Source: Escherichia phage SDYTW1-F1-2-2_3
Length of the DNA: 64,000 bases
Sequence record: OR296290.1
Strand: one strand, 5' to 3'
Both the position numbers and the translations under genes were made by a program. The notes under the pieces were generated by a model. That model was given only the letters and a program-made list of their open reading frames with translations, searched no databases and was not told the DNA's origin. Below, in pieces: positions 1 through 18,022 of this stretch (position 1 is the stretch's first letter; each line of letters starts with the position of its first letter).

Positions 1-372
1 TAAAGCCTTTGCTTCTTCCTCTCCTTCAAGAAGTGTTCCAGAACCAGAATGTAGATCATCGGGTCGAGAGAAGATTTCTTTAGGTATAAAAATATCTACT
101 GCTCCATCTTTATATCTACGACTCATCTCATTCCAAGAAAAACCAACTTGGTGCTTCTGTAGCTGTCGTGCAATTGCTATAGGGGCTTCGCATCTGAAAC
201 TAGCTTGTGGGTGGCGAAAAGGACTTACATGTCGTTCCCGAGCCAGGAAATTAATTAGACGGGTGTCACTCTCTTTTAGCTCCTCTCTTTCTACTCCCAT
301 GGTTACACGAGCAGCGTTGACTACTGTAAGATCAGAACCGAAGTTATCAATTAATGAAGCTTTGATTGTCAT
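1..372 (-). CDS. thyX: ThyX-like flavin-dependent thymidylate synthase, 5' part; gene continues past window start
   Basis: ATG at 372 with AAGGAGA SD. Manual translation MTIKASLIDNFGSDLTVVNAARVTMG...HVSPFRHPQASFRCEAPIAIARQLQKHQVGFSWNEMSRRY parallels the ThyX core, but the RHR motif reads KHQ. Confidence 0.6.
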   Translation of the reverse strand, partial: MTIKASLIDNFGSDLTVVNAARVTMGVEREELKESDTRLINFLARERHVSPFRHPQASFRCEAPIAIARQLQKHQVGFSWNEMSRRYKDGAVDIFIPKEIFSRPDDLHSGSGTLLEGEEEAKAL

Positions 373-3735: not shown

Positions 3736-4269
3736 TTACACACCTTTAGATGCAACCACACCTTCAGAATTATTATAACGGCCTTTCACTGCATAGGAAT
3801 GTTCCCCTGCATGAGAGTGCTCAAACATAACCATCTGACCGACACGCATACCAGCACGAACTCGTAAGCTGTGGTGTTTGGTTACATTGTGGAATTCAAA
3901 CGTCAGCTTACTGCTGTTAAATCCTGCATCTGCCCATCCGGCGTGAAGGTGGTTCAAACCACAACGAGCCATAGACGAACGCAGAACAAACAGACTTGAG
4001 ATGTTATCTGGAAGATTAAACTCCTCCATGGAGTGAGCCAAGAAGAACTGACCCGGAGTGATAACCAAACCCTCTTCAGGAATCTTTACTTCCTTCCACT
4101 GAAGATTCTCTTTCGCATCAATATCAACGATGCCATCAGCCTGTTCTTCAACAAGGATAGTATCACCAATACGGATATCCACACTAGCAGCGTTAACATA
4201 CTTATGCTCCGCATCCAGATAGCCATTATCAATTACATCGTGCAGTTCAACACTTCCTAGTAAACTCAT
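3736..4269 (-). CDS. dCTP deaminase/dUTPase-fold protein
   Basis: RSSMARCGL...AGWADAGFNSSKLTFEFHN resembles dCTP deaminase signature. Confidence 0.65.
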   Translation of the reverse strand: MSLLGSVELHDVIDNGYLDAEHKYVNAASVDIRIGDTILVEEQADGIVDIDAKENLQWKEVKIPEEGLVITPGQFFLAHSMEEFNLPDNISSLFVLRSSMARCGLNHLHAGWADAGFNSSKLTFEFHNVTKHHSLRVRAGMRVGQMVMFEHSHAGEHSYAVKGRYNNSEGVVASKGV

Positions 4270-4278
4270 TCTTATTCC

Positions 4279-5577
4279 TTAGTTATTTGTTTCCATGTCA
4301 AAAGAGATTCCACGACCCGCTTCATCGGCAAACCGAACTGTACGGGTTTGAGGCTCTAATACTTCAGGGTTGTTAGCAACAAACCGATCAGCGAGATTGC
4401 GGCTGACGGTCTCAGCTAATTCACCATGAGAAGGGACGTCAAGATCACCAACAGCGAAACCCTGACCAGAGAACTGGTGACGGCTGACAGTCAAACCATT
4501 TGATTGACCATTAGAACGTCTAGACAACCACCGCTCAAATGAATCGCCAGTAACACCAAGAGCTTCTTCAAAAGATGTTCTACGAGTAGAGCTTAGATTT
4601 CGTGCTTCGTTTGCTCGACGTCTTGCAGGGGCTACAAACACCCCTTCAACTGCATTGTGTCGGTTAGGTTCATCTTCCCGACCAAGGAGATCTCCTCCTG
4701 TATTGGTTGTTAAGTTTGTTAACCCTTCAGACCAATACGCACGAATCTGACTAGAGCCATTAACACTTGACATTAACTGAATCTCTTCGTAAGGGATTCC
4801 AAAGAATCGACTCATGTCTTGGTCAACACAATATTGAGGACTTGCTGTGTCGCCAATAAGAGATACTTGACCTTGACTATTAACCAGATCCCTGACCATT
4901 TGAGGTATAGGTTGTTGCCGAGCATGTGCCATATAATGAAAAGCAACTCCCGGGGTTTGGAACCTTAACACTTGTGAGTTAGGCCACTTCTTGTGGACAT
5001 ATTTAATCTCTCGAGCAGTCACAACCACTGGAATTGGAGAAGTCATAGCCAAGTATCCATGAACGGTCATGAATAGCTTATCAAGAGTCATAGCACCACG
5101 ACACATCATAGGAAAATTACCCAATACCTCTTCAATAGAAGTAGGATAATTAAACATGAATTGGATACGAACCCCATTCCACTGAAACTCAATGATATCA
5201 GTGAATGTTAATTGAGAAGTTCCTGTGTATGGCTCATCTGTAGCTTCAGCAAGAAGGGATGAATACTCAATATCTTGTGATTCAAGCCATTCCTTCACGT
5301 TACTTTCAATCTCTCTTCCAAGAGCTTGCCAACGGTCAGTTGGGATGAACATGTTTTGAGTTCTTGGTGTTTGTCCTCTGACAATAAAGATATCAATGTC
5401 ATGTGGAGCTGTGTTATTAAGCACAGCATCACGAACAGCCCCACCAGTAATGAGGGGACAGATACCGTCTGGAACCAAGTTGTTGTTAATCAACTGTTCA
5501 ATGAAATGACGACCAACAGTAATATCAGGTTGTTGAGCAACCTTATCTTCAATTCGGTTAATCGGAATAACAATCAT
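4279..5577 (-). CDS. Pol-beta superfamily nucleotidyltransferase (CCA-adding / poly(A) polymerase-like head)
   Basis: Start set to ATG 5577 (MIVIPIN...), 1 nt after exonuclease stop. Motif GGAVRDAVLNNTAPHDIDIF matches the GGxVRD...DxD NTase signature. Confidence 0.6.
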   Translation of the reverse strand: MIVIPINRIEDKVAQQPDITVGRHFIEQLINNNLVPDGICPLITGGAVRDAVLNNTAPHDIDIFIVRGQTPRTQNMFIPTDRWQALGREIESNVKEWLESQDIEYSSLLAEATDEPYTGTSQLTFTDIIEFQWNGVRIQFMFNYPTSIEEVLGNFPMMCRGAMTLDKLFMTVHGYLAMTSPIPVVVTAREIKYVHKKWPNSQVLRFQTPGVAFHYMAHARQQPIPQMVRDLVNSQGQVSLIGDTASPQYCVDQDMSRFFGIPYEEIQLMSSVNGSSQIRAYWSEGLTNLTTNTGGDLLGREDEPNRHNAVEGVFVAPARRRANEARNLSSTRRTSFEEALGVTGDSFERWLSRRSNGQSNGLTVSRHQFSGQGFAVGDLDVPSHGELAETVSRNLADRFVANNPEVLEPQTRTVRFADEAGRGISFDMETNN

Positions 5578-5578
5578 T

Positions 5579-6133
5579 TTACATTTTCCAATATAATGAA
5601 GGTGGGTCGTAAGGGTCAAATCCTGTGAGTTCACACAAGTATTTATAAACCTTAACGGTTAAGTTAACGTCCTGTTCACAATAAGTAAACATATCTTCAG
5701 TGAAAGCATCCCATGCTTCCTCTTGCTCACCGTAATCACCTTTAAGTTCCTCTAAGAACTCACCCCATTGCTTCAAGCCATGACCTCTTGGGCCATGTCT
5801 AGGGTCACCTTTCGGGTACTCAGGACTGTCACCAATACGGTCAGGTTTAAGATATCGACTAAGACATAGAGTGTCGAAGACGTTAAAATGATATTTAATC
5901 AGATTGGGATACATCTTCTTCAGAGCACAAAGGTCGAAGTCAATAATATTATGACCTACTAGCACATCAGCTTCTGTAAGTTTACGAATCCCATCTTCAA
6001 TTTGGTGAGGCCGATAGCCCCACCTTTCACCAGTTTCAACATCGAAGATGTAAATACACCACACTTTAGTTATGTCATCGTACAGTGCATTACTCTCGAT
6101 ATCAAATGCAAACACTTTCTTTTTCTTTACCAC
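5579..6133 (-). CDS. DEDDy-type 3'-5' exonuclease
   Basis: GTG start; Exo I FDIES, Exo II HNIIDFD, Exo III YCEQD motifs. Confidence 0.7.
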
Positions 6134-7943: not shown

Positions 7944-8147
7944 TTAGTAGAACGAACGAATTTCATCCCACACTTGTTCCTGTTCTTTCCTATAAAAAGA
8001 AAGTTGGGTCTTGAACATCTCCACTGATGATTCAAAGTTTTTAGATTGTGCAGCTTCAACGAAACGTTCATGTCGGTTGATTTTGCACCGTAGCATTAAA
8101 TACTTGGCTTCAAGTCTCCGAAGAGCCTGTCTTTTCTCAAGATTCAC
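7944..8147 (-). CDS. hypothetical protein (67 aa)
   Basis: Track ORF in gap between helicase and GGCT genes. Confidence 0.4.
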   Translation of the reverse strand: MNLEKRQALRRLEAKYLMLRCKINRHERFVEAAQSKNFESSVEMFKTQLSFYRKEQEQVWDEIRSFY

Positions 8148-8556
8148 TTTTCAGATACTCTGACCAGTCGCCAGATTCAACCAGAACGTCTTGTTCTTCG
8201 TCAATGTGATAAATCCAAGCGATAACAGTTTCACCTGAGTCCAGCTTAACGGCAATCTGGGTGCGTTGATAGAAGCTGTCTTCAGGGCTACGTTTGTTGT
8301 AACCTTCCAGTCGGTCATATGGGCCTTCCAGACCTGCTTTGTCAGTAGCAAACACTTCTACACGAACAGGCTTATTGTTATTGCTGTGTGCAAGAGAGAT
8401 GCTTGGGAAGTAGGAACCACCATAACGGAACAGATCAAAGTTGTCTTCAGTCCAACCTTCACCAATTGACTTAGCACCAGCTCGGTCATTAACTAGATAA
8501 TTAGCTTGACCACGACGAAGAGAACCATAAGTTGCTACGTAAATTACTTCTGACAT
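8137..8556 (-). CDS. gamma-glutamyl cyclotransferase (AIG2/GGCT-like)
   Basis: VATYGSLRRGQANY N-terminal motif plus downstream EG...Y pattern typical of the GGCT fold. Confidence 0.6.
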   Translation of the reverse strand: MSEVIYVATYGSLRRGQANYLVNDRAGAKSIGEGWTEDNFDLFRYGGSYFPSISLAHSNNNKPVRVEVFATDKAGLEGPYDRLEGYNKRSPEDSFYQRTQIAVKLDSGETVIAWIYHIDEEQDVLVESGDWSEYLKSES

Positions 8557-8625
8557 TATCTATACCTTTGTTGGTTTGTTTAGTTTATCCGAACTAGCCT
8601 CCTATCTCAAAGAGGCTAGAGCAGA

Positions 8626-8811
8626 TTACTCTGTAATAAAGATTTTAATCACACCGCAGATTACTTCATCATTAAAAGAAGCAACAACTTCTTTATCCTG
8701 ACAGAACTCTACTTTACCATTATAAGAGTTGAAGTAGTCAGCGTCAATATCCATTGCTCGCATTTCGCCAGCTGCATTGGTGTCTTTAAACAGAACTTTA
8801 TACTTATTCAC
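8626..8811 (-). CDS. hypothetical protein (61 aa)
   Basis: Track ORF, leftward, abuts next gene. Confidence 0.4.
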   Translation of the reverse strand: MNKYKVLFKDTNAAGEMRAMDIDADYFNSYNGKVEFCQDKEVVASFNDEVICGVIKIFITE

Positions 8812-9056
8812 AGATATGTTACTCCCTTGTCTTGTTGTGCTTCAGAGATGATACGTTCTACGCATTCCATAGAGTATTTATCACCACGTTTTAGGAAAGT
8901 TACAATTGCAGAGAATTGATTACCAATCATTCGCTGATTAGTAATACCCCACTCCTCACACAATTTACGCAACTCTTTACGAGAGCCTACAATAAGAGGC
9001 TCTTTTTGTTCCATCATTCCATTTTGTACTAGATCTTCCAATGAAAACATATCCAT
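8808..9056 (-). CDS. hypothetical protein (82 aa)
   Basis: Track ORF with 4-nt overlap to downstream gene. Confidence 0.45.
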   Translation of the reverse strand: MDMFSLEDLVQNGMMEQKEPLIVGSRKELRKLCEEWGITNQRMIGNQFSAIVTFLKRGDKYSMECVERIISEAQQDKGVTYL

Positions 9057-9062
9057 ATATCC

Positions 9063-10259
9063 TTAGTAGTTTACAACAGTGCCATCATTCAGGGTAAGGC
9101 TATTAATCTGCAACACACGACCAAGCTGACGATCGCTAATCGGTGCGTTCCAGCCAGAGCGGTAGAAGTTACGACCACAGAAGAACAAGATCACATTACT
9201 TGCTACAGTCGAACCGTTTTCAGGATGCTTGATGTTAGCGATATAATAACCACGACGCAGATTACGACGGGTTACCGGGTTGATCTCTAACCCTTGTTCT
9301 TCAACTTGCATTGTTTCAGGAACAGGCTCCGAAGACTCTTCAGCAACTGGCTCGGCTGCCAATGCAAAGTTCTCATCACCTGCTGATTCAGCAAATTCTT
9401 CTTCCACTTCTTCAACAGGCAGTTCGTAAGCAACACGGTAGTCAGGATCAACACCAGAGAAGCTCTTAACAAACTCAACAATATTGTGAGTATAGGTTTC
9501 CAGAGTTGTTCCAGTCAGTCCCGGAGCTGTATTGACTTCCAGAACCCAAGCGTTAGTTCCTTTGCTAATCAGATCAACAGCACCGAAGTTCAAACCCAGA
9601 GCAGATACAGCTTTGTGAGCTTGAATCAGAACTTGATCAGGAGGTGCTTCAGTGAAGGCGTTAGAATAAACCCAACCAGTGTGGTGGTTGCGAATATCTT
9701 CACGATAACTTTCCAATTCACGATAACCGTTACGACGAATCTTCTTCTGAACGTAAGTGATAACACCCTCAAACACATGAACACGCCATTCACGACGTGG
9801 GCCTTGGATACCTTTGGTGTACAGAGGAGCATCTGCAACACCTTCTCGTGTAAGACGAACAGTAATACCTTCTCCAGAGTGACCAGTTAAGGTTCCACGT
9901 TCATAAACAATTTCATTCCGGTTCCAGTTCTGAGCTACTTCACGATCGATGGTGTATTCAACAGTTTTGACTTCAGCTAAACGCAGTGCGTTAAATGCTG
10001 CAACTTTGTTAGCCGCTCGGTTCAAGGCAACCACAGAGTTCAACACAGTTGCGCCACCGAAGAAAGAATCGTTGTATCGACGGTTTCCGTAGTTGACAAC
10101 AATATCACCAACCCGAGAACGATAACGAGAACCCTCTGATACCAGAGACATTACGTTAGCATTTAAGCGAAGTTCCTGAATCTTAGTGTTAATTGCAGAA
10201 GTAAGTTCACGAACTGAATCAGAAGGGCCATAAGGAAGAACACGGATACGAGTAGTCAT
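9063..10259 (-). CDS. ATP-grasp ligase (RimK-like)
   Basis: ALGLNFGAVDLISKGTNAWVLEVNTAPGLTG matches ATP-grasp C-terminal motif; acidic C-terminal extension. Confidence 0.7.
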   Translation of the reverse strand: MTTRIRVLPYGPSDSVRELTSAINTKIQELRLNANVMSLVSEGSRYRSRVGDIVVNYGNRRYNDSFFGGATVLNSVVALNRAANKVAAFNALRLAEVKTVEYTIDREVAQNWNRNEIVYERGTLTGHSGEGITVRLTREGVADAPLYTKGIQGPRREWRVHVFEGVITYVQKKIRRNGYRELESYREDIRNHHTGWVYSNAFTEAPPDQVLIQAHKAVSALGLNFGAVDLISKGTNAWVLEVNTAPGLTGTTLETYTHNIVEFVKSFSGVDPDYRVAYELPVEEVEEEFAESAGDENFALAAEPVAEESSEPVPETMQVEEQGLEINPVTRRNLRRGYYIANIKHPENGSTVASNVILFFCGRNFYRSGWNAPISDRQLGRVLQINSLTLNDGTVVNY

Positions 10260-10261
10260 TG

Positions 10262-10486
10262 TTAGATACCTTTAAGTTTAAGAATTTCGTTACGAGTTTT
10301 TTGAATCTGAGCTTCAATTTCGAAGTAGTCGTTGAACGCATCGTTCTCTACTTCATCGGATGGTGCATCAATCAGACCGAAAGCGAACGGATACAGCTTC
10401 CGCTGCTCCGTTACTAATTCGATATGAACTCCTATATAATACTGTAGGAGAGTGATCTTTGGTTTCTTAGGAACCAGATTTGACAT
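10262..10486 (-). CDS. hypothetical small protein (74 aa)
   Basis: Between ATP-grasp and GAT-II genes. Confidence 0.4.
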   Translation of the reverse strand: MSNLVPKKPKITLLQYYIGVHIELVTEQRKLYPFAFGLIDAPSDEVENDAFNDYFEIEAQIQKTRNEILKLKGI

Positions 10487-10700
10487 GAGGTTCTACCTTA
10501 ATGCCTTTGATTTTTACATAATCAGCAAGTACGTTATTGATCACCGTTGGGAAAGGAACCTCAACCTGTGTCTCAAGTACTTGACCAATACCAGCTTGCA
10601 TCCACTTCTGGATTGCACGAAGGTTATCACATCCTGTGCTCGTCATCGGGATACGTCGAGTAGTTACAACGTTATCCAGCATCATCTTACGAATTTCCAT
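10467..10700 (-). CDS. hypothetical small protein (77 aa)
   Basis: Immediately downstream of the GAT-II gene. Confidence 0.4.
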   Translation of the reverse strand: MEIRKMMLDNVVTTRRIPMTSTGCDNLRAIQKWMQAGIGQVLETQVEVPFPTVINNVLADYVKIKGIKVEPHVKSGS

Positions 10701-10702
10701 AC

Positions 10703-12733
10703 TTAACCTCTATTCAATGAACATTTAGGAGAATTACAATAAACTTGATTCATAGAACCAAGCGTACAACTTTCAGCATCGCGCCACGGAATCTGCTTAA
10801 AACACTCTGAGCAGTAGCCGAGGGTTGACCACATGGCTTTGGTGAAGTCAGTGCTTCGGTTTCCGTCGAAGCTGACAACAGTTTTGCGGAGAGCTGTTCG
10901 TGATTCAGGAAACACACCTGCTTTCTCAGCAGGTTCCTCCTTTTTTGGCTTAGTTGAGATTGCAAAAATACTGTTGCTACGTTTCTCAACATAAGCATCA
11001 ACAACATCCTCCAGAGTGATGCCTGTCTGTTTCGCTGAGGAAGGTAATACAGTCATACGACCGATCATATCTTCAGTTACACGTAAAGCAAACTCAGGAC
11101 GACGGGCGTTTGTTGTATCTGTTGCTTTAATCCAGACATAACCATCTTTGATCGTAGCATTAGATACCTTCTTCTTTACATCTACAGCGCAGACTTTACA
11201 GATATCTTCACCACGAAGACGACTAAGTTCTTCATCGAACTCATTCTCCGTTTTAACTTCACCGCAGATTTCACAAACACCAATAGGAGTTTCCTCCTCT
11301 TCTTCATCTTTAGGTTTAGTCAAACCTTCCAGACATTCAGGGTGCCAGTAGCATTGATATGCGAAGACTGCTTTAGGTGCATCCTTCCAATCAATGTGTT
11401 TGTCACAACCACCGCAATCACCATGAGAGTGTGCTTCCCAGAATTTACGAGTGATAGTAACGCCATTCTTGTTGACGAAACTATCATTCATATCAAAAGG
11501 GATATCATCATCGAAGTCAGCAGTAGTAGACTCAGGCTCCTTTTTCTCCAGAGATGGGTCAACAAAACGACCTGCTGTGATTACTAAACGAACCATAGCA
11601 TTAACTTCGGAGATGCAGGATACTGTCCCACGGTAAACGATTTTAGGGTCTTTCAGGGCATCCTGATAAGCCTTAATGTCTACGTTATGAACATCGCCTT
11701 CAATATACTCTTGAGACTTCTCATCGTAGATATAACCAATCATCTTACCACGAGAAGGAACAGCACCAGCTGTTGCATAAGGAACAAACTCATGTGGTGT
11801 GATTTCCACAGTCATGTCGCGGCGAATGTCAATGTTTCGATCGCTTGCGATTTTGTTTTGACTTACCACTGCGTTTCTTCGACGAACGTCTGCCGCTGTC
11901 ACTCCCGGCTTCGTGTCGTAAGGATTGCTTGTACTGCTTTTTGAGGAACTTTGATAATTGCTTTGGCTGTAGTTGTTCGAGTAGTAATTGCCCCAACGAT
12001 TGATTACCGTAAAAACCGGAAGCTCGTGGGCGACCTCTTCAACTAGAGTCATACTGTTGTTTGACATATCAAAGATATATTCTGTACCAACTTTACATTC
12101 AAAGTGCTCATCAATTCGGTTTTTGTGAGACTTAGAACGCTTCAGAATCCACATCAACATGTCTTCTTCAGAAGCACCAAACCAATCTCTGTTACAACGT
12201 GCGAGATGGAAAGGACGCTCTTCATTACGGATGATATGAAGGCGGTTATCAGAAGCATCATGCCAGATTAAGGTGAAAGCACCATCCAGCTTTTGAATAG
12301 TCTCTGCTGCACCAATAGTGTTAATAGAGTGGCAGATGTTCTCACTGTCTACCTCGAAGTTTTTGCTGTCAGGTAACAGATCTTGGTCCATCAAGGTTCC
12401 GTTATGAACCAGAGTGATGTTACCATGTTGGAAAGGATGGGCGTTCTTGGCGTTAACTGCACCTTTCGTTGCATGACGGCTGTGACCAACAATCCATGAA
12501 GGCGCTACAGTGTAAGCTGTTTCACCAGTGGTGTGTTTCTTGTACTCATCTTGAAGGATGAATGCGAAAGAAGGAAGTGCCTCTTTATAAGTGAAGACTT
12601 CCTTAGTGCTCTTACGCTGACCAAAGATACCAGAGGAATGTTGCCCTCGGAATACCCCAGCATAAAAGAGTTGGTTAAATACGTCTAAATCAGTGCTTGA
12701 CAGATTACCGCCAGCTAATACGATGCCACAAAT
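10703..12733 (-). CDS. class-II (Ntn) glutamine amidotransferase with Cys-rich C-terminal region; probable AUU start
   Basis: Frame open upstream of track start to 12736; manual translation (I)CGIVLAGGNLSSTD...GHSRHATKGAVNAKNAHPF is a GAT-II Ntn domain. No ATG/GTG/TTG precedes Cys; AGGTGG SD lies 7 nt before ATT. Confidence 0.65.
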   Translation of the reverse strand: MCGIVLAGGNLSSTDLDVFNQLFYAGVFRGQHSSGIFGQRKSTKEVFTYKEALPSFAFILQDEYKKHTTGETAYTVAPSWIVGHSRHATKGAVNAKNAHPFQHGNITLVHNGTLMDQDLLPDSKNFEVDSENICHSINTIGAAETIQKLDGAFTLIWHDASDNRLHIIRNEERPFHLARCNRDWFGASEEDMLMWILKRSKSHKNRIDEHFECKVGTEYIFDMSNNSMTLVEEVAHELPVFTVINRWGNYYSNNYSQSNYQSSSKSSTSNPYDTKPGVTAADVRRRNAVVSQNKIASDRNIDIRRDMTVEITPHEFVPYATAGAVPSRGKMIGYIYDEKSQEYIEGDVHNVDIKAYQDALKDPKIVYRGTVSCISEVNAMVRLVITAGRFVDPSLEKKEPESTTADFDDDIPFDMNDSFVNKNGVTITRKFWEAHSHGDCGGCDKHIDWKDAPKAVFAYQCYWHPECLEGLTKPKDEEEEETPIGVCEICGEVKTENEFDEELSRLRGEDICKVCAVDVKKKVSNATIKDGYVWIKATDTTNARRPEFALRVTEDMIGRMTVLPSSAKQTGITLEDVVDAYVEKRSNSIFAISTKPKKEEPAEKAGVFPESRTALRKTVVSFDGNRSTDFTKAMWSTLGYCSECFKQIPWRDAESCTLGSMNQVYCNSPKCSLNRG

Positions 12734-12812
12734 TTTCTAATCCACCTGAAGGGTAAACCCTTTCATCTAATTAACCTTTAAATTGTGCCCCTTTGCCAGA
12801 GGCACCCATTGA

Positions 12813-13916
12813 TTACAGCGCTTGCTCTAACTGATTTTCCAGATGATCTGGAATGTACCCTGTGATGTTGTTATCACTGTGTCCTGACTCACGTAGCAAG
12901 TCAAAAATAGCACGGATACGTTGCTCTGGTGCAGATCGTACAGTAGATAGATCGGTAGTACGAAGCATAACCAGAATCTCTTGGTACAAGTTGTTAGCGT
13001 TCCCTCGGACATATCCAAGGAATCCGTAGAAGTCTGAGATATGACGTAGGTCAACAAGAACTTCTCCGTTGGAGTTGGTTCGACGTAAACGAATACGACC
13101 AGACTGTTCTACTTCATGAGAACGACAATACAAAACATCACGGGCCATACAATACCCTGAATGCAAGTCCGACTCGTCCAGATTGTAATCCAGAGGAAGG
13201 TAAGGAAGCATTGGGGCAAATCGTACAGTATTTAAATGCTCGATAAACTGATCATTGCTCATCTCTGCGTTATCTAAAGCCAGCTTCTTCAACATCAAGA
13301 AGCGGTTAACCAGATTGAGAAGTTGACCACGTTTCCACTTAGGCTCACTGATACGGAACTCAATCGAACCATATTGGGCAAGTGGCAGAAGGTTCAGAGA
13401 TGTATATTTATCCCATGAACGAACCAGACGGTTGAAGAACTCTTCATCGTCGTAGTTAAATGCGTCAGAGGCATTCATTACCTGTGCTTGTACCACTGCG
13501 AAAGCAGGGCAGAAGTTGCTACGGTAACGATGGTAGCCTGAACACTTGAACAACATCTTTTCATAGAAGGTCCAAGCGAGAATGGTTTTCTTGAGGATAT
13601 TACTATCAGCATCCCTCATATCCATATGAACGTGAGTAGAGCAACGCCAAGTCCCCTCGGCGTGCGATTCAGCTACAGCTTCACTCAGGTTGTTGATAGC
13701 GTCTAACAACTCCTGTCCGTTGTAAGGTCGTGAACATACCATTTCACAACCATTACGCAGGGAACCATCCTCTGTACAATCCCACATATCTGCTTCGATA
13801 TGATCGGAACCTTCGAGTTCAAGTTCAATACCGACACCGCACTGAAGTGCAATTGAACTATGCGCCTCAGTTAAATGACCTTCTCGATATCCAAAAGTTT
13901 GCGCTACAGTTGTCAT
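12813..13916 (-). CDS. amidoligase (glutamine-synthetase-like)
   Basis: GVGIELELEG...DGSLRNGCE...CSTHVHMDMRD pattern of GS-like amidoligases. Confidence 0.6.
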   Translation of the reverse strand: MTTVAQTFGYREGHLTEAHSSIALQCGVGIELELEGSDHIEADMWDCTEDGSLRNGCEMVCSRPYNGQELLDAINNLSEAVAESHAEGTWRCSTHVHMDMRDADSNILKKTILAWTFYEKMLFKCSGYHRYRSNFCPAFAVVQAQVMNASDAFNYDDEEFFNRLVRSWDKYTSLNLLPLAQYGSIEFRISEPKWKRGQLLNLVNRFLMLKKLALDNAEMSNDQFIEHLNTVRFAPMLPYLPLDYNLDESDLHSGYCMARDVLYCRSHEVEQSGRIRLRRTNSNGEVLVDLRHISDFYGFLGYVRGNANNLYQEILVMLRTTDLSTVRSAPEQRIRAIFDLLRESGHSDNNITGYIPDHLENQLEQAL

Positions 13917-14530
13917 AATGAATCCACCAACGTAATATTGTAATTGCTAAGGTTTTCAGAAATGTGATGAAAGTGTTCCAGAAGTCGCATCGGTTGCTGA
14001 CCGTAAGAGTCACGAGGCGCTTCCAGATCTACTTGTCCTACCAGTGCACCTTTATAATGCACCTTACCATCAGTAGGGTTGATGTAAATATAACGAGTGA
14101 CCAATCCTTCGAATTCAGGATTGAACAGACTGTAAACCATCTCCCCGGAGATAGCACGACCAACACCCGGAGCATTTCGAATCTTGTTACCCATCAAACC
14201 CTTTGCTCTCTGACGAACAGGGTTAATATGAGTCCAGCTTACAGTGTTACCGTTATGGAACAGATAACCAACATCAGGTGATTCAAGAATCAAGGTTGGG
14301 TCGAACACTGGAATATTCATCGTAGTATTTCGAAGATTCCCTTGCTCGTTCTTGTACCACTGCTCTACAACAAAGTACAGAGCCTGTTCTGCTTCGTGAG
14401 AGAAGTCATCACTGCGGAAGTTACCGCTCTGCTCAACACCAATCACAAAACACGGAAGGTTGATATTACCTGCTCGTTTAGCAATCCATGTACCATTATA
14501 GTAATGAGAAAAATCAGCTACTAAGCTCAC
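13913..14530 (-). CDS. hypothetical protein (205 aa) within ligase cluster
   Basis: Track ORF, 4-nt overlap with upstream gene; no motif recognised. Confidence 0.5.
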   Translation of the reverse strand: MSLVADFSHYYNGTWIAKRAGNINLPCFVIGVEQSGNFRSDDFSHEAEQALYFVVEQWYKNEQGNLRNTTMNIPVFDPTLILESPDVGYLFHNGNTVSWTHINPVRQRAKGLMGNKIRNAPGVGRAISGEMVYSLFNPEFEGLVTRYIYINPTDGKVHYKGALVGQVDLEAPRDSYGQQPMRLLEHFHHISENLSNYNITLVDSL

Positions 14531-14539
14531 GATAACCTC

Positions 14540-15349
14540 TTATGCTACCTGAAGGAGTTTGATCTGCTGGTCAGCTTCTTTAACGTTGTTGCCGTTAATG
14601 ATTTCATGAAGCTTCTCAATCGGAAGGCGAGAGTGCAATGCCATCAGAGTGGACATATCACACTGCTGAACAACCTTGTCAACCTGATCGTAAACAAACT
14701 TACGATTTTCACGATCACTAATCCAGAAATTAGACAGTGAACGATATTCAATACCGTAGTCTTTATAACGGATTGCAGACGCTTTACCGTAGAGTTCTTT
14801 ACGGCGAGTATCTTTATCCATAATAACTGCTGGAAGAGATAGGAAGTAATCACACAACACACCCAGCATCATCTGAGTTTGCAGAGTGATATCCAAAGCA
14901 CCAACTACGCCGAGATGTACGTGACCACCGGCAGTACGAAGTCCCTTATTCTGAGAAGTCGGGGATGGGTTCTTCTGACCAGTGAAAGCGTTGAAATCAG
15001 GAGTGCATCCGAAGATGAACGCTGATTCATTGAAAGTCTTCATCTCTTCTTCAGTGAAGATGTGAGAGCTAACACCCGGAGCTGTTTCCATGTCCAGTTT
15101 GTTCAGGACATTGTTGGTGAGATCGATACCACGTTGCATGTTATCGTTAAACGCTTCAAAGCCGCTCTGTGGGTCAATATCAAACTCAGCCAGTACGTTG
15201 TCCTCTTGAAGACGAACATCCTTAGCCAGAGTGATCTTATCGTCCTTAGAACAACCTAACAGACCAGCTACAGAGGTGATAATACCATTGCTGGTACGAA
15301 CGAACATTTCCGGGTCGCTTCCTATTAAGAATTTACGTTTAGTAGTCAT
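14540..15349 (-). CDS. amidoligase-like paralog (269 aa)
   Basis: FLIGSDPEMF ... AGGHVHLG parallels the G-x-E-x-E and HVH motifs of 12813-13916; weak. Confidence 0.45.
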   Translation of the reverse strand: MTTKRKFLIGSDPEMFVRTSNGIITSVAGLLGCSKDDKITLAKDVRLQEDNVLAEFDIDPQSGFEAFNDNMQRGIDLTNNVLNKLDMETAPGVSSHIFTEEEMKTFNESAFIFGCTPDFNAFTGQKNPSPTSQNKGLRTAGGHVHLGVVGALDITLQTQMMLGVLCDYFLSLPAVIMDKDTRRKELYGKASAIRYKDYGIEYRSLSNFWISDRENRKFVYDQVDKVVQQCDMSTLMALHSRLPIEKLHEIINGNNVKEADQQIKLLQVA

Positions 15350-15816
15350 GCTTTAGTCCAACCTTTATGAGATAGATAGTTTTTAAATCTGCCACTGTGC
15401 ACAGCGCCCATGTGGCCTTGATGTAAGTCGTTGCTTCTACAGAAGTCTCTAAGATTGTATATTGTTACAACCTCGCCATCTGGAGATCTAAACTTCCAAA
15501 ATCTAGCATTCCCTTTCACAGCGTTTTCTTCACTGGTCAGAAGTTGGAAATTACTTGGGTGGTTATTAAGTTTATCACCATCGATGTGATCAACAGTCAT
15601 ACCATCCGGAATAGGTCCAATAAACAATTCATACATAAGTCTATGTAATAAAAAGTTCCTTGTTATCTTTTCAGGGGCTTGCACTGTTGTAAACTTTAGA
15701 TAACCATCCTTATCAGGAAACAGTTTCCTCTGTTTCCCTGTTCTTGAATGGAATATACTACCATCTTCGAACACTAAGAAGGTAGCAACTCCGACTACTA
15801 ACTCCCTAAATTCCAT
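15346..15816 (-). CDS. HNH homing endonuclease
   Basis: HRLMYELFIGPIPDGMTVDHIDGDKLNNHPSNFQLLTSEEN HNH core. Confidence 0.7.
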   Translation of the reverse strand: MEFRELVVGVATFLVFEDGSIFHSRTGKQRKLFPDKDGYLKFTTVQAPEKITRNFLLHRLMYELFIGPIPDGMTVDHIDGDKLNNHPSNFQLLTSEENAVKGNARFWKFRSPDGEVVTIYNLRDFCRSNDLHQGHMGAVHSGRFKNYLSHKGWTKA

Positions 15817-15843: not shown

Positions 15844-16815
15844 TTAGTCATTGTAATACTCCACTAATTCAGAAAAGAGAGATGAGATTGTGTTACCAAC
15901 TTCTTCAAGAGTAAGACCGGAATCTGCTCCAGTTCTTTGAATCAGTCGGGCTGTAAAGTTTTGTACTGTAATGTTTCCCAACTTGTCGTCTATTGCTTCA
16001 CGTTTGTGACCATAACAGTTGGACCAGAGTCTTAACCACTCTGACATTGTTTCATACTCGTCCGGGTCTTGATCTTTAGCACGAGCAAATCTTCGTAAGG
16101 CATCTTGGTTATGGTTACGAACATAACCATTCTCGTTGTCGCCAACACCGAAGGGGTTTTGAACCCATACTTGCTTCGTGTATTCATCAGAGTCTACAAC
16201 CAAAGGAAGGAATGCTGCTGCTGACATATTGTTATTAACAACAATAGAGGTGCTCTCGCTACTCCCATTGGCTCTTCCTCGTTGAGACCACCCACCGAAG
16301 AAGTCACGACCCAACCCAGCTAACACTAGAGCGATGCCGATGCGTTTACGCTTCAGCCACTCTTCCCTGTCTTCAATTCCTTCTGCTAGGAAATCCATTC
16401 CACGATACTGCCCTTCCAGAATACTACGGAAAAGCATAAGTCCTGTGAAGATCTGATCTGCTGGATGCTCACGGAGGTTGACAGCAACACTATTCGCTGA
16501 AGTGATTGTAAATACGTCACGATAGCAAGACATAGAGTTCATAATGTCTGCTGTTTCAACCAAGTTCTTTTCAATATCAGATGCAACATGACCGTGAAAA
16601 GAGTGAGTCCAGTAATTCAACATCTCCAATTGCAAGTTGATATCACGGTTGAAGCGTCTATAATGCCTCTCTCCCATGATAACTTCACCATTAACATCAG
16701 TTACGCACTGGCCTTGCATGTAGTTGTGGATACCGAAGCATCCACGACCTAAGAACTTCTGTTCCCCTAAATCTTGTTGAAGACTCAGAGGTACGATCGT
16801 TGTGGAGATTGACAT
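15844..16815 (-). CDS. hypothetical protein (323 aa)
   Basis: Long ORF, no motif recognised. Confidence 0.5.
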   Translation of the reverse strand: MSISTTIVPLSLQQDLGEQKFLGRGCFGIHNYMQGQCVTDVNGEVIMGERHYRRFNRDINLQLEMLNYWTHSFHGHVASDIEKNLVETADIMNSMSCYRDVFTITSANSVAVNLREHPADQIFTGLMLFRSILEGQYRGMDFLAEGIEDREEWLKRKRIGIALVLAGLGRDFFGGWSQRGRANGSSESTSIVVNNNMSAAAFLPLVVDSDEYTKQVWVQNPFGVGDNENGYVRNHNQDALRRFARAKDQDPDEYETMSEWLRLWSNCYGHKREAIDDKLGNITVQNFTARLIQRTGADSGLTLEEVGNTISSLFSELVEYYND

Positions 16816-16825: not shown

Positions 16826-18022
16826 TTATTTTCCTAAAAATAATCCGCTCATAACACCATCCCACTCAGAGGACGGAATCACTGAATACTCCGAACTTTG
16901 GTCCAGAGTTCCACTACTAAATCGCTGAACAATGTTATAGATGTTGAACATATCTTTAGTCTCAGCGCGATAAGCGTAGACTAGTCTGTCAGCCGTTCTT
17001 TCATCTTTAGATACTCGACGAGCAAAGGTAACCAGAAGGTTATCACCTTTCAGTATTTCTGACTCATCTTTTACTAAATCAGGATGCATAACTGGCAAGA
17101 ACATCGAGTTATTAACTCTCAATTCTGCTGTTTCGTCATTATCATAATGAATCCACTTAAAGTCTTCATCACGGAAGTGACCGCATCCATCTCTGTATGA
17201 CTGTTGACGCCAAGGTACTTGGAATGCTTCAGCATACTTATCAGCCATGCCTACTGTAAACAGCGACGCTGGGAAGATACAAGCATCCCAATCATTACCA
17301 ACCAGAGTTGCTTTCGTTTCACCCAAGAGGTTAGTGTAAGTGCTAACCATTCGGGAATAAACGTAAGCCTGAAGGATTGTCCAACCTTCAACCAACCATT
17401 TATGAAGGAAGGTTTCAACTTGACTCTCTTCATCTTCACAATAGAAGGTTCGATCTAACATCAAATAGAACAGACAACGATCAGCAGGAACATTCTCAGT
17501 TGCTACACCCATAAAACCTTTATCGTGCCAGCGTAAACAGGAGGGACGATCTTTGTCCACAAATGCTTCCATAGCTTCCAGTACAGCACGAGGTGTGGTT
17601 TGATGTTCAGGGTTTTTACTGTTCCAACGATCAATGTTATTCTTAGGAGGTGTGTCTTCATCTTCATACGAACACCAACTTAAAGCTTCAGCTACGTGCT
17701 TTCCATCACGCCAGCGTCTAAAACCTAACATCTTCATGTGAGTTCCGGAGTTCCAGATATGCTTGATTTTACACATATCCATTTCTCGACTTAACAGGAA
17801 CTCTTCCCCATCAGCACTACGAACGTTAGCTTCTTCATGCCACACTCGAACGTGCATATTCCACCCATGAGTTGCCTCATACATGTTAGGGTCGAAGTAT
17901 TCATCTTCGTCATCATCTTCATCAACGCCACCATTATAGTTGCGAAGCTGAAGGAACCCATAACAAGGAGGGTGGACCGTTAAAACATTACCTTCAGTAT
18001 CTTCTAATGTTACTGGAAACAT
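16826..18022 (-). CDS. hypothetical protein (398 aa), acidic
   Basis: Long ORF, no motif recognised. Confidence 0.5.
   Translation of the reverse strand: MFPVTLEDTEGNVLTVHPPCYGFLQLRNYNGGVDEDDDEDEYFDPNMYEATHGWNMHVRVWHEEANVRSADGEEFLLSREMDMCKIKHIWNSGTHMKMLGFRRWRDGKHVAEALSWCSYEDEDTPPKNNIDRWNSKNPEHQTTPRAVLEAMEAFVDKDRPSCLRWHDKGFMGVATENVPADRCLFYLMLDRTFYCEDEESQVETFLHKWLVEGWTILQAYVYSRMVSTYTNLLGETKATLVGNDWDACIFPASLFTVGMADKYAEAFQVPWRQQSYRDGCGHFRDEDFKWIHYDNDETAELRVNNSMFLPVMHPDLVKDESEILKGDNLLVTFARRVSKDERTADRLVYAYRAETKDMFNIYNIVQRFSSGTLDQSSEYSVIPSSEWDGVMSGLFLGK

What the first reader, a model, noticed from the sequence alone, without database searches (positions are those of the whole stretch)
8137..15349. 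Cluster of amide-bond enzymes: GGCT, ATP-grasp ligase, class-II glutamine amidotransferase and two amidoligase-family genes
Consecutive leftward genes encode folds that make or break amide/isopeptide bonds. They are 8137-8556 (GGCT/AIG2-like, YGSLRRG), 9063-10259 (ATP-grasp, AVDLISKGTNAWVLEVNTAPGLTG), 10703-12733 (Ntn GAT-II, CGIVLAGG...GHSRHATKG, with a Cys-rich C-terminal region), 12813-13916 (GS-like amidoligase, GIELELEG...THVHMD) and 14540-15349 (shorter paralog, GSDPEMF...GGHVHLG). Unassigned ORFs 13913-14530 and the small ORFs 10262-10700 could be carriers or substrates. Combinations of these families have been predicted in phages as peptide-tagging or small-molecule synthesis systems, but to my knowledge none has an experimentally assigned function. 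The target here (virion protein, host protein or metabolite) is unknown. An HNH endonuclease sits at the cluster edge, which hints at a mobile cassette.
Basis: partly seen in the sequence, partly recalled or inferred. Interest (0 to 1): 0.85.

Follow-up and report, generated by a model that had tools for sequence, protein, structure and literature searches.

The report
Known phiEco32-type phage amide-ligase cassette
This is the well-conserved, already described but still functionally untested "gamma-glutamyl / amide-bond" enzyme cassette of phiEco32-like coliphages, so the gene calls are right but it is not a new discovery.

Summary
The window is a Kuravirus (phiEco32-like) coliphage, 95-97% identical to NJ01, PE006 and 172-1. 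All five named genes lie at the stated coordinates on the minus strand and fall in the named families: GGACT, RimK-like ATP-grasp, class-II GATase, Amidoligase_2 and COOH-NH2 ligase type 2.

The cluster is not new. It is about 98% identical to phiEco32 phi32_77-86, for which Pfam PF14395 is named. It was described in silico by Iyer 2009, Hardies 2013 and Duhaime 2017, the last as a "peptidoglycan modification cassette". I found no experimental function.

The four ligase/GATase families recur in 11 of the 11 other lineages compared, usually just upstream of primase/helicase.

What I add:
- A sixth core member: a roughly 200-aa non-enzymatic double beta-barrel protein that sits between the two ligases. 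It has an invariant Lys-Gly in a conserved, basic, disordered loop.
- ORF 8808-9056 is gp79, an RNA polymerase regulator, not a cassette part.
- The HNH gene is a sporadic homing-endonuclease insertion, not a sign of cassette mobility.
- The GATase starts at ATT behind a strongly conserved leader, and several public records truncate it.

Best guess: a cytoplasmic pathway that builds and trims gamma-glutamyl amides, with the barrel protein as carrier or adaptor. The target is unknown.

The parts
8137..8556 (-). GGACT/YtfP-type gamma-glutamyl(amine) cyclotransferase (= phi32_77)
   Evidence: Pfam GGACT, E 2.8e-17. A 9-phage profile hits mammalian GGACT (1vkb, 3jub) at E 1.6e-13 to 4.7e-13, and also YkqA and YtfP. 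Y10, G11 and E84 are invariant, and E84 aligns with the Glu of the 'DDFE' motif.
8626..8811 (-). 61-aa ORF (= phi32_78), restricted to Gordonclarkvirinae; probably not part of the system
   Evidence: phrog_8591, unknown function. The only homologue found is in EP335, at 38% identity.
8808..9056 (-). gp79, an inhibitor of sigma70-RNAP and activator of the phage sigma factor; embedded in the cluster but not an amide-bond component
   Evidence: PDB 9m7y chain G 'gp79', E 4.3e-51. Function described in PMC8948821 and PMC12276001.
9063..10259 (-). RimK-like ATP-grasp ligase (core residues about 1-260) with a lineage-specific C-terminal domain (= phi32_80)
   Evidence: Profile A5 against the PDB: RimK / alpha-L-glutamate ligase at E about 1e-7; Ddl only at 1e-4 and only over the C-terminal 50 aa. 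NCBIfam MptN 5.6e-7 and rimK_fam 1.4e-6. E241, N243, P246 and G247 are invariant.
10262..10486 (-). 74-aa ORF (= phi32_81), restricted to Gordonclarkvirinae
   Evidence: phrog_13464. Found only in EP335.
10467..10700 (-). DUF7195 small protein that follows the GATase in the closer lineages (= phi32_82); accessory
   Evidence: Pfam DUF7195, E 4.7e-17. Occupies the same position in SE131, Aeromonas 4_4572, Vp_R1 and PJNS034. Its C-terminus is not conserved.
10703..12733 (-). Class-II (Ntn) glutamine-amidotransferase domain (aa 1 to about 220), followed by a linker, a barrel-like middle region and repeated Zn-ribbon modules (= phi32_83); ATT start
   Evidence: GATase_6, E 1e-14. The motifs C1, RGxHS, GHxRxAT, NAHP, HNGT and DSE are conserved in 8 lineages. 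No SIS, PRTase or AsnB domain is present. The C-terminal region is lineage-variable.
12734..12812 (-). Conserved leader of the GATase gene: an 8-bp hairpin, a 9-codon in-frame mini-ORF (12766-12737) and a Shine-Dalgarno sequence AGGTGGA ahead of the ATT start
   Evidence: Sequence. The alignment with phiEco32, NJ01 and EP335 is essentially invariant here, while the flanking codons diverge. RNA fold (z-score only -1.5).
12813..13916 (-). Amidoligase_2 (PF12224) ATP-dependent carboxylate-amine ligase (= phi32_84)
   Evidence: Pfam 3.8e-8, and all 8 lineage members hit PF12224. Invariant residues: the GxExExE strand, DGSLR, HxH and GSxEFR. No sequence relative in the PDB.
13913..14530 (-). Core non-enzymatic double small-beta-barrel protein with a conserved, basic, disordered loop (residues 84-127; invariant K110-G111) (= phi32_85); candidate carrier or adaptor
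14540..15349 (-). COOH-NH2 ligase type 2 (PF14395) (= phi32_86, the family's namesake)
   Evidence: Pfam 2.2e-8, and 7 of 8 lineage members hit PF14395. H143, H145, and the YGxExR motif are invariant. No sequence relative in the PDB.
15346..15816 (-). Free-standing HNH homing endonuclease inserted at the junction between p323 and the ligase gene; not a functional part of the system
   Evidence: HNH_3, E 2.8e-17. Absent from NJ01 and phiEco32. Sporadic distribution.
15844..16815 (-). 323-aa protein of unknown fold (= phi32_87); possible upstream member in a subset of lineages
16826..18022 (-). 398-aa protein of unknown function (= phi32_88); membership uncertain, possibly a paralogue of the 323-aa protein
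   Evidence: phrog_13063. Only weak similarity: E 0.18 to the SE131 ORF, over the same region that matches p323.

Best explanation
The region is the phiEco32-type cassette for building and trimming gamma-glutamyl amides. It is cytoplasmic and expressed early to middle in infection.

Shown here: the cassette encodes three ATP-dependent carboxylate-amine ligases. These are COOH-NH2 ligase type 2, Amidoligase_2 and a RimK-like ATP-grasp enzyme. It also encodes an Ntn glutaminase-type domain with an intact glutamine / gamma-glutamyl pocket. A GGACT-type cyclotransferase with its catalytic Glu is present too. The sixth member is a phage-specific double beta-barrel protein that is always encoded between the two ligases.

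Inferred mechanism, in four steps:
1. One ligase makes a gamma-glutamyl amide on an amine acceptor.
2. The ATP-grasp enzyme and the second ligase extend or decorate it.
3. The GAT-II domain either supplies ammonia for an amidation or hydrolyses a gamma-glutamyl amide.
4. The GGACT enzyme finally removes a gamma-glutamyl 'handle' as 5-oxoproline.

This is the logic of gamma-glutamyl-protected pathways such as butirosin BtrJ/BtrG, Puu, Egt, and LysW/LysX.

I think the barrel protein is the dedicated partner. It is most likely a carrier or substrate whose invariant loop lysine (K110) is the acceptor (my probability about 0.4), or otherwise an adaptor that holds the ligases together (about 0.4). 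The final product or target is not determined.
For: - Family assignments and intact catalytic motifs.
- Co-conservation and fixed sub-order (ligase, then barrel, then ligase) across very different phages.
- Overlapping or near-abutting start and stop codons around the barrel gene.
- The barrel has no enzyme fold. It evolves fast (22-27% identity where the enzymes keep 27-49%), yet it retains an invariant K-G inside a disordered loop of pI 11.6.
- The cyclotransferase groups with GGACT, YtfP and YkqA. GGACT is the gamma-glutamyl-amine-specific branch (plus established enzymology of GGACT).
- The ATP-grasp enzyme is closest to RimK / glutamate ligases.
- Expression: in SU10, the ATP-grasp, GATase, YtfP-like protein and a 23.3-kDa hypothetical protein were detected by mass spectrometry (PMC4281155). 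The barrel protein is 23.2 kDa.
- Timing: PaP3 ORF32-48, the stretch where the homologous genes sit in the PaP3-like record, are middle genes (PMC4707531). I did not check that the two numberings match. The PSA-HP1 cassette is 'expressed immediately' (PMC7082346).
Against: - No biochemical data exist for any member.
- The GS-like fold of the two ligases was not verified here.
- The carrier idea rests on a low-confidence AF2 loop and on conservation alone.
- The barrel C-terminus is not conserved, so it does not resemble Pup, LysW or ubiquitin-like tags.
- PA11 and Vibrio 1.262.O have no detectable GGACT, so the trimming step is not universal. PA11 and phiM6 carry a class-I GATase / peptidase C26 instead; 1.262.O has a protein annotated as class-I GATase-like.
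- The variable C-terminal domains on the GATase, ATP-grasp and Amidoligase_2 are unexplained.
Confidence: 0.4

Rival explanations
1. The published hypothesis. The cassette modifies peptidoglycan precursors in the cytoplasm. For example, it could add or amidate residues on the stem peptide, or gamma-glutamylate the free mDAP amine. The infected cell's wall would then be altered so that superinfecting phages are excluded.
For: - Stated, as a prediction only, in PMC10580990, PMC5498523 and PMC11318856, all citing Iyer 2009 or Hardies 2013.
- The ATP-grasp enzyme has Ddl-like C-terminal similarity.
- Glutamine-dependent amidation of peptidoglycan carboxylates is known chemistry (LtsA/AsnB1, MurT-GatD; established knowledge).
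- In PSA-HP1 the cassette is expressed immediately after infection (PMC7082346).
- All hosts in my sample are Gram-negative bacteria with mDAP-type walls.
Against: - The ATP-grasp profile matches RimK / glutamate ligases over about 190 residues, but Ddl only over 50.
- No Mur-ligase-type enzyme is present, and I saw no obvious signal peptide or transmembrane segment on reading the sequences (not tested with a predictor).
- GGACT-fold enzymes need a free alpha-amino group on the gamma-glutamyl residue. The stem-peptide D-iGlu lacks this (enzymology, inference).
- The conserved barrel protein has no role in this model.
- It has never been tested experimentally.
Confidence: 0.2
2. A protein-tagging system aimed at host or virion proteins. 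Peptide or poly-glutamyl tags would be ligated to target proteins, in the manner of RimK or pupylation, and removed again by the GAT-II and GGACT enzymes.
For: - RimK-like ATP-grasp enzyme.
- Two ligases assigned by Pfam to carboxylate-amine ligase families; from memory these share a clan with the GS-like PafA/Dop (not tested here).
- Iyer 2009 frames these families as peptide-tag ligases (title cited).
- The lineage-variable Zn-ribbon and C-terminal domains could recognise targets.
Against: - No small tag with a conserved C-terminal Glu/Gln was found. The C-termini of DUF7195 and the barrel protein are not conserved.
- None of the published proteomics or structural papers retrieved here reports modified virion proteins (SU10 proteomics), although none searched for such modifications.
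- GGACT acts on free gamma-glutamyl-amines, not on protein-bound ones (established enzymology).
Confidence: 0.15
3. A DNA or nucleotide hypermodification pathway. The cassette would install an amino-acid-derived adduct on phage DNA or its precursors, which would explain the restriction resistance of Gordonclarkvirinae.
For: - The cassette usually lies directly upstream of primase/helicase and DNA polymerase.
- A GAT-II domain is used in phage 7-deazaguanine modification as Gat-QueC (own knowledge).
- The basic loop of the barrel protein and the Zn-ribbons on the GATase could bind nucleic acid.
Against: - Native versus amplified nanopore sequencing of Pseudomonas phage Rembedalsseter, which carries the amidoligase (H70), found no modification motifs, only nicks (PMC11780129).
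- No hydroxymethylase, DNA kinase, aGPT-Pplase, DpdA or QueC was found in the ORFs scanned.
- The BASEL authors point to the dCTP deaminase and nucleotidyltransferase instead.
- Adjacency to the replication genes can be explained by shared ancestry of the whole early region.
Confidence: 0.07
4. Synthesis or consumption of a free, glutathione-like gamma-glutamyl metabolite or polyamine conjugate. The barrel protein would be only a scaffold. The purpose would be to re-route host glutamate, glutamine, thiol or polyamine pools.
For: - The set of folds mirrors the gamma-glutamyl cycle: a GS-like ligase, an ATP-grasp synthetase, an Ntn hydrolase and a cyclotransferase (own knowledge).
- It also mirrors the Puu and Egt pathways. 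The GAT-II domain weakly resembles EgtC (E 2.5e-4).
- RIO-1 and DES1 carry glutaredoxin or thioredoxin genes nearby.
Against: - This overlaps heavily with the best explanation and differs only in the role of the barrel protein.
- No equivalog-level match to GshA, GshB, PuuA or EgtA was found.
- The redox genes are common companions of phage ribonucleotide reductase and replication genes.
Confidence: 0.2

Closest known systems
phiEco32 genes phi32_77 to phi32_88 (NC_010324), the founding example of Pfam PF14395 'Phage phiEco32-like COOH.NH2 ligase-type 2'
   Same: Same genes in the same order. The amidoligase is 98.1% identical at protein level (H30). The GATase is annotated over exactly the same 676 codons, starting from the ATT.
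   Different: The window carries an extra HNH endonuclease between the phi32_87 and phi32_86 homologues.
'Peptidoglycan modification cassette' / 'operon metabolizing gamma-glutamyl amide linkages' of RIO-1, PSA-HP1, PA11, LUZ24, PaP3, tf, 7-11 and CW02 (Hardies 2013; PMC4819975; PMC5498523)
   Same: The same five enzyme families plus the barrel protein, sitting upstream of primase/helicase.
   Different: The gene order of the GATase, ATP-grasp and GGCT genes differs. The Kuravirus version has long C-terminal extensions (Zn-ribbons), DUF7195, two upstream proteins of 320-400 aa, and gp79 embedded in it. The published function is a prediction only.
Butirosin side-chain pathway (BtrI carrier, BtrJ ATP-grasp, BtrG gamma-glutamyl cyclotransferase); own knowledge
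   Same: An ATP-grasp ligase adds a gamma-glutamyl protecting group on a carrier-bound amine, and an AIG2/GGCT-fold enzyme later removes it as 5-oxoproline. This works like the proposed logic.
   Different: There is no ACP, no PLP decarboxylase and no aminoglycoside genes. The carrier candidate here is a beta-barrel protein, not a phosphopantetheinyl ACP. No homology was tested.
LysW/LysX amino-group carrier protein system (own knowledge)
   Same: A RimK-family ATP-grasp enzyme ligates a substrate to a small dedicated carrier protein encoded in the same operon.
   Different: LysW uses a conserved acidic C-terminal tail and a Zn-ribbon. The barrel protein's C-terminus is not conserved, and its conserved element is an internal basic loop.
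Pupylation (PafA/Dop + Pup); own knowledge
   Same: In pupylation, two GS-like carboxylate-amine ligase homologues work with a small, partly disordered protein, and deamidation chemistry is involved; the cassette's two ligases are assigned to related families by Pfam only.
   Different: There is no Pup-like GGQ/GGE C-terminus, no proteasome genes, and no detectable sequence relation.
GlmS / PurF / AsnB / EgtC class-II amidotransferases
   Same: An N-terminal Cys Ntn glutaminase domain with all the glutamine-binding motifs.
   Different: All equivalog scores are far below their cut-offs, and no SIS, PRTase or synthetase domain is present. The public label 'L-glutamine-D-fructose-6-phosphate aminotransferase' is therefore wrong.

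Membership tests
GGACT / AIG2-like (PF06094) | Profile match above the curated cut-off | tested here: met
   63.8 bits against a cut-off of 22.8, E 2.8e-17. A profile built from phage homologues hits the GGACT structures 1vkb and 3jub at about 1e-13.
GGACT / AIG2-like (PF06094) | YGS/TL substrate-pocket motif and the catalytic Glu | tested here: met
   Y10, G11 and E84 are invariant in 9 lineages. E84 aligns with the Glu of 'DDFE' in 1vkb.
GGACT / AIG2-like (PF06094) | Gamma-glutamyl-amine cyclotransferase activity | not testable with these tools
   Requires an enzyme assay.
ATP-grasp, RimK-like | Single-sequence match above the Pfam or NCBIfam cut-offs | tested here: not met
   RimK 16.4 bits (cut-off 21) and Dala_Dala_lig_C 17.1 (cut-off 24). 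All NCBIfam hits are far below their cut-offs. It is therefore a divergent member, not an equivalog of RimK, MptN or Ddl.
ATP-grasp, RimK-like | Profile-level homology to solved ATP-grasp ligases over the catalytic core | tested here: met
   Profile A5 hits 7qyr, 5zct, 4iwx and 7qys (alpha-L-glutamate ligase / RimK) at E 1.5e-7 to 3.6e-7, over residues about 38-246.
ATP-grasp, RimK-like | Mg-ATP-binding E-x-N motif near the C-terminus of the core | tested here: met
   E241, N243, P246 and G247 ('LEVNTAPG') are invariant in 8 lineages.
Class-II (Ntn) glutamine amidotransferase | Cys as first residue after the initiator Met | tested here: met
   The sequence reads ATT-TGT. Cys immediately follows the start codon in all 8 lineages.
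Class-II (Ntn) glutamine amidotransferase | Glutamine-pocket and oxyanion motifs (the R26, R73, N98-G99 and D123 equivalents of GlmS/PurF) | tested here: met
   RGxHS, GHxRxAT, HNGT and DSE are conserved. GATase_6 scores 55.1 bits against a cut-off of 27. The residue equivalence is by motif, from my own knowledge.
GlmS (glutamine-fructose-6-phosphate aminotransferase), as annotated in public records | C-terminal SIS isomerase domains; equivalog score | tested here: not met
   No SIS domain. TIGR01135 scores 35.8 bits against a cut-off of 418.
Amidoligase_2 (PF12224) | Profile match above the cut-off, conserved across the lineages | tested here: met
   33.9 bits against a cut-off of 22. 8 of 8 lineage members match.
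Amidoligase_2 (PF12224) | Glutamine-synthetase-like fold and ATP-dependent carboxylate-amine ligation | not tested
   No PDB sequence relative. Only the motif pattern (E-rich strand, HxH, GSxEFR) was seen.
COOH-NH2 ligase type 2 (PF14395) | Profile match above the cut-off; identity to the founding member phi32_86 | tested here: met
   34.1 bits against a cut-off of 25. 7 of 8 lineage members match. The phiEco32 locus is syntenic.
COOH-NH2 ligase type 2 as a paralogue of Amidoligase_2 | Detectable sequence or profile similarity between the two families | tested here: not met
   hhalign of A6 against A7 gives probability 0.3%, E 0.21. The alignments are thin, so a distant relationship cannot be excluded.
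phiEco32 / RIO-1-type amide-bond cassette (Iyer 2009; Hardies 2013) | Co-occurrence of GAT-II, two carboxylate-amine ligases, an ATP-grasp enzyme and (usually) a GGCT in one co-directional block | tested here: met
phiEco32 / RIO-1-type amide-bond cassette (Iyer 2009; Hardies 2013) | Peptidoglycan as the substrate | not testable with these tools
   This is only a literature prediction.
Pup-like or LysW-like tag/carrier | Conserved C-terminal acceptor or donor tail (GGQ/E, or acidic EDWGE) | tested here: not met
   The C-termini of the barrel protein and of DUF7195 vary in length and sequence across the families.
5-hmdU-derived thymidine hypermodification or 7-deazaguanine DNA-modification clusters | Presence of a hydroxymethylase, DNA kinase or aGPT-Pplase, or of DpdA or QueC | tested here: not met
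   None was found among the 30 window ORFs scanned with Pfam. Not every small ORF was scanned, and about 12 kb of the genome lies outside the window.

The most novel reading that the evidence does not exclude
The cassette, working with its beta-barrel partner and Zn-ribbon-bearing GATase, could install a previously unknown amino-acid-derived (gamma-glutamyl / amide) modification on phage DNA or on a nucleotide precursor. This would be the missing explanation for the marked restriction-modification resistance of Gordonclarkvirinae reported for the BASEL phages.

A less radical variant: the barrel protein is a new kind of lysine-based carrier protein, on which a peptide-like product is assembled and then released as a pyroglutamyl compound.
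Probability: 0.08. Interest if true: 0.85.

Novelty: already known. Interest (0 to 1): 0.33.

Why it matters
The cassette is widespread. Amidoligase homologues occur in 302 of 50,697 phage records, across hosts including E. coli, Pseudomonas, Vibrio, Aeromonas, Salmonella and Proteus, plus single Sinorhizobium and Xanthomonas phages in the rows examined. It takes up about 7-10 kb of 45-90 kb genomes, so it is clearly under selection. Yet sixteen years after its in-silico description nobody knows its substrate.

Kuraviruses can now be grown on E. coli K-12 (BASEL Bas86-94, PMC11990801). That makes this the most tractable place to settle the question.

The practical gains from this analysis are a cleaner parts list, a concrete candidate for mass spectrometry, and a corrected gene model:
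- The parts list now includes the barrel protein as a core member and excludes gp79 and the HNH gene.
- The candidate for mass spectrometry is the K110 loop of the 23-kDa barrel protein.
- The GATase gene model starts at ATT, which is needed for any expression work.

Tried and rejected
- **Profile searches of the two ligase families against PDB sequences.** Nothing found. Relaxed Pfam scans showed no GS or GCS2 hit.
- **hhalign between the two ligase families.** No relationship detected.
- **Pfam scans of the long versions of the enzymes in other phages,** looking for informative domain fusions. None found.
- **Search for the remembered gp36 promoter element TAATGTATA.** Not above chance: 16 matches against 19.8 expected. 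The sigma70 promoter count was also not above shuffled controls (18 against 22.2). The simple terminator pattern was about 2.8-fold enriched (22 against 7.9, sd 2.9), but I did not examine those sites, so operon boundaries remain unresolved.
- **Rfam scan of the window.** No hits.
- **The conserved-C-terminus idea for the barrel protein.** Suggested by the close homologues ('LVESL'), but rejected once the wider family was aligned.
- **Poseidoniales 'archaeal virus' carrying the genes, as an argument against peptidoglycan.** Rejected because the host assignment is uncertain.
- **The Iyer 2009 paper itself.** It could not be read. Its content is cited second-hand.

Full report
**What the window is.** The 8-kb region is 95-97% identical at the DNA level to Gordonclarkvirinae coliphages such as PE006, NJ01, 172-1 and SGF2. 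Of 99 phage records that match, 65 hold most of the region. The homologous block in phiEco32 is phi32_77 to phi32_88. GC skew shows the usual Kuravirus layout: a leftward early/middle arm up to about 31 kb, then a rightward late arm.

**Check of the observation.**
- Pfam places 8137-8556 in GGACT (E 2.8e-17).
- 10703-12733 falls in class-II GATase (GATase_6, E 1e-14, N-terminal about 200 residues only).
- 12813-13916 falls in Amidoligase_2 (E 3.8e-8).
- 14540-15349 falls in PF14395, whose very name is 'Phage phiEco32-like COOH.NH2 ligase-type 2'.
- The ATP-grasp call was weak for the single sequence, below Pfam cut-offs. A profile of eight phage homologues then hit RimK / alpha-L-glutamate ligase structures at E about 1e-7 over about 190 residues. 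D-Ala-D-Ala ligases matched only over the last 50 residues. NCBIfam agrees: MptN and rimK_fam match, all far below equivalog cut-offs.
- The cyclotransferase profile hits mammalian GGACT, YkqA and YtfP at 1e-13 to 1e-10, and the catalytic Glu is invariant.
- The GATase domain keeps the Cys1, RGxHS, GHxRxAT, NAHP, HNGT and DSE motifs in all eight lineages aligned. It should therefore bind a glutamine / gamma-glutamyl group. It has no SIS, PRTase or AsnB domain, so the public label 'glutamine-fructose-6-phosphate aminotransferase' is wrong.

**Co-conservation.** Amidoligase homologues occur in 302 phage records. I fetched loci from fourteen phages. I compared them with the window proteins by phmmer, by HMMs built from my alignments, and by BLASTP.
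- COOH-NH2 ligase, Amidoligase_2, GAT-II and ATP-grasp occur together in NJ01/phiEco32, EP335, PJNS034, SE131, Aeromonas 4_4572, Vp_R1, a PaP3-like Bruynoghevirus, Vibrio 1.262.O, PA11, RIO-1 and phiM6.
- GGACT is present in most of them. PA11 and phiM6 instead or additionally carry a class-I GATase / peptidase C26; Vibrio 1.262.O has a protein annotated as class-I GATase-like.
- Xanthomonas DES1 has a rearranged version. A Porphyromonas phage has a lone amidoligase in its structural region.
- In most of these phages the block lies on the same strand just upstream of primase/helicase and the DNA polymerase genes; the distance ranges from under 1 kb to about 5 kb. The primase/helicase is itself homologous across them. 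The simplest reading is vertical inheritance of a whole early/middle region, not a mobile cassette.

**The literature already describes it.** Pfam named PF14395 after the phiEco32 gene.
- PMC5498523 calls it a seven-gene 'peptidoglycan modification cassette'. It lists phiEco32, 7-11, PA11, tf, MR299-2, LUZ24, PaP3 and CW02.
- PMC10580990 and PMC11318856 repeat the idea of superinfection exclusion through the cell wall, from Iyer et al. 2009.
- Ten full-text searches found no experiment on function.
- Expression is documented. PaP3 ORF32-48, the stretch where the homologous genes sit in the PaP3-like record, are middle genes (PMC4707531); I did not check that the two numberings match. The PSA-HP1 cassette is 'expressed immediately' (PMC7082346). 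SU10 proteomics detected the ATP-grasp, GATase, YtfP-like protein and a 23.3-kDa hypothetical protein (PMC4281155). The barrel protein weighs 23.2 kDa.

**What is new in this analysis: a sixth core member.** The 205-aa ORF 13913-14530 belongs to a small, phage-only family. An exhaustive profile search found 64 clusters at 50% identity, nearly all standalone proteins of 170-225 aa. My HMM finds it between the COOH-NH2 ligase and Amidoligase_2 in 11 of 12 module-bearing loci. Start and stop codons there overlap or nearly abut.

AF2 (mean pLDDT 72) predicts two small beta-barrels flanking residues 84-127. That loop is modelled with pLDDT below 50. Yet it holds the best-conserved sequence of the protein, with consensus W..P.RS.KKGL..RR. 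K110-G111 are invariant across homologues of only 22-43% identity. The loop has pI 11.6 in a protein of pI 5.9.

**What is new: parts that do not belong.**
- ORF 8808-9056 is gp79 (PDB 9m7y, E 4e-51). This is the regulator that shuts off sigma70 transcription and activates the phage sigma factor (PMC8948821, PMC12276001).
- The HNH gene (15346-15816) is absent from NJ01 and phiEco32. It is found at 77% or higher identity in only six related records. It sits exactly at the junction of the phi32_87 and phi32_86 homologues. A 46%-identical HNH occupies the equivalent spot, directly upstream of the COOH-NH2 ligase gene, in Sinorhizobium phage phiM6. This is what a homing endonuclease would do.
- hyp74, hyp61 and hyp67 are restricted to Gordonclarkvirinae. 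DUF7195 follows the GATase only in the closer lineages.

**What is new: the GATase gene model.** No ATG, GTG or TTG precedes the catalytic Cys. The frame reads TAG AAA ATT TGT. phiEco32 annotates the gene from this ATT. NJ01, EP335 and SU10 annotate N-terminally truncated proteins that lack the nucleophile.

The 79-nt leader is invariant in phiEco32 and NJ01 and almost so in EP335, a different genus, even though neighbouring codons carry synonymous changes. It contains three elements:
- an 8-bp hairpin;
- a 9-codon in-frame mini-ORF (ATG at 12766, TAG at 12739-12737) that ends one codon before the ATT;
- the Shine-Dalgarno sequence AGGTGGA.

I infer tight translational control, either termination-reinitiation or IF3-sensitive AUU initiation. 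The fold energy alone is not exceptional (z-score -1.5).

**What is new: upstream genes.** The 323-aa and 398-aa proteins upstream are conserved in Gordonclarkvirinae. The 323-aa protein shows weak similarity to the ORF directly upstream of the ligase in SE131 and the Aeromonas phage (E about 0.005). Those ORFs in turn link weakly to their counterparts in Vp_R1 and the PaP3-like phage. Its AF2 model (pTM 0.79) has no PDB counterpart. Their membership in the system is uncertain.

**Mechanism.** Everything in the core revolves around glutamate / gamma-glutamyl amide chemistry:
- three ATP-dependent carboxylate-amine ligases;
- a glutamine-type Ntn hydrolase;
- a GGACT-type enzyme, which by established enzymology releases an amine from an L-gamma-glutamyl-amine that has a free alpha-amino group.

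My best reading (confidence 0.4) has four steps: gamma-glutamylation of an amine, extension or amidation, a GAT-II step, and trimming. The GAT-II domain would act either as ammonia donor or as gamma-glutamyl hydrolase. The gamma-glutamyl handle would finally be removed as 5-oxoproline. The barrel protein would serve as dedicated carrier (K110) or adaptor. This is how the butirosin (BtrJ/BtrG), Puu, Egt and LysW/LysX systems work. It does not make this a member of any of them.

**Rival explanations.**
- The published peptidoglycan hypothesis (0.2) remains possible. The free mDAP amine would be a plausible acceptor. However, it is not favoured by the RimK-like rather than Ddl-like ATP-grasp enzyme. 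It also leaves the barrel protein unexplained.
- Tagging of other proteins (0.15) lacks a tag candidate.
- A free-metabolite version (0.2) differs only in the role of the barrel protein.
- DNA modification (0.07) is the most exciting option, because Gordonclarkvirinae are unexplainedly resistant to restriction (PMC11990801). Two things count against it. Nanopore comparison of a cassette-bearing Pseudomonas phage found no modification (PMC11780129). No known DNA-modification enzymes were found in the ORFs scanned.

**Verdict.** The side claims (mobile cassette, paralogy, small ORFs as parts) are not supported. Novelty: already known. Interest is modest (0.33). The open question of function is real and, thanks to K-12-infecting Kuraviruses, now testable. 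The finding itself would not surprise a phage genomicist.

Noticed in passing
window 12731-12812 (minus strand): The GATase gene starts at ATT. It is preceded by a leader that is invariant in phiEco32 and NJ01 and nearly so in EP335. The leader holds an 8-bp hairpin and an in-frame 9-codon mini-ORF (ATG 12766 ... TAG 12737) ending one codon before the ATT. This suggests reinitiation or IF3-sensitive control of translation.
   Followed up: partly
L001 8899-10587 (NJ01_099); L010 7350-9194 (EP335 gp081); SU10 CDS85 (PMC4281155): Public annotations truncate the GATase to 563 or 614 aa (63.8 kDa) by choosing an internal TTG or ATG. This removes the catalytic N-terminal Cys. They also mislabel it as glutamine-fructose-6-phosphate aminotransferase. 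phiEco32 annotates it correctly from the ATT.
   Followed up: yes
window 15346-15816 (minus strand); L007 6970-7416: The HNH homing endonuclease is inserted exactly between the 323-aa gene and the COOH-NH2 ligase gene. It is present in only about 6 related phages (Bas86 at 99.4%, SU7, PE006, Bas89). A 46%-identical HNH sits at the equivalent position, directly upstream of the COOH-NH2 ligase gene, in Sinorhizobium phage phiM6. The 5' end of the ligase gene may therefore be a shared homing site.
   Followed up: partly
window 8808-9056 (minus strand): This small ORF inside the cluster is gp79, the structurally solved (PDB 9m7y) regulator that switches RNA polymerase from sigma70 to the phage sigma factor.
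   Followed up: yes
window 3736-4269 and 4279-5634 (minus strand): A dCTP-deaminase-like gene (Pfam DCD, E 3.5e-34) and a nucleotidyltransferase (weak PolyA_pol head domain) lie just downstream of the replication genes. The BASEL paper (PMC11990801) suggests this pair may underlie an unknown DNA modification and the strong restriction resistance of these phages.
   Followed up: partly
[not shown]
   Followed up: partly
window 10703-11900 (C-terminal half of the GATase, minus strand): A repeated Zn-ribbon module, 'F[TS]K..W....C..C...IPW.DA....C..C', occurs twice in Kuravirus, SE131 and the Aeromonas phage and once in Vp_R1 and PJNS034. A CxxC...CxxC unit lies between the repeats, and a barrel-like conserved middle region precedes them.
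   Followed up: partly
window 8557-8625 versus L001 6559-6768: NJ01 has a 210-nt ORF (NJ01_093, 'similar to Gp092 of phage 7-11') between the GGCT gene and the 61-aa ORF. The window lacks it.
   Followed up: no
window 347-838, 1060-1386, 1959-2558 and 24532-24921 (minus strand): Other calls in the leftward arm: a second HNH_3 endonuclease, a thioredoxin, a ferritin/Dps-like protein, and a Hydrolase_2 (SleB-type) cell-wall hydrolase located among the early genes.
   Followed up: no
L003 102-2665; L004 15130-15933: SE131 carries PRPP synthetase and nicotinamide phosphoribosyltransferase genes about 5 kb upstream of the cassette. The Aeromonas phage has a PRPP synthetase gene directly after its ATP-grasp gene. 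These are NAD-salvage-type genes neighbouring the cassette in some lineages.
   Followed up: no
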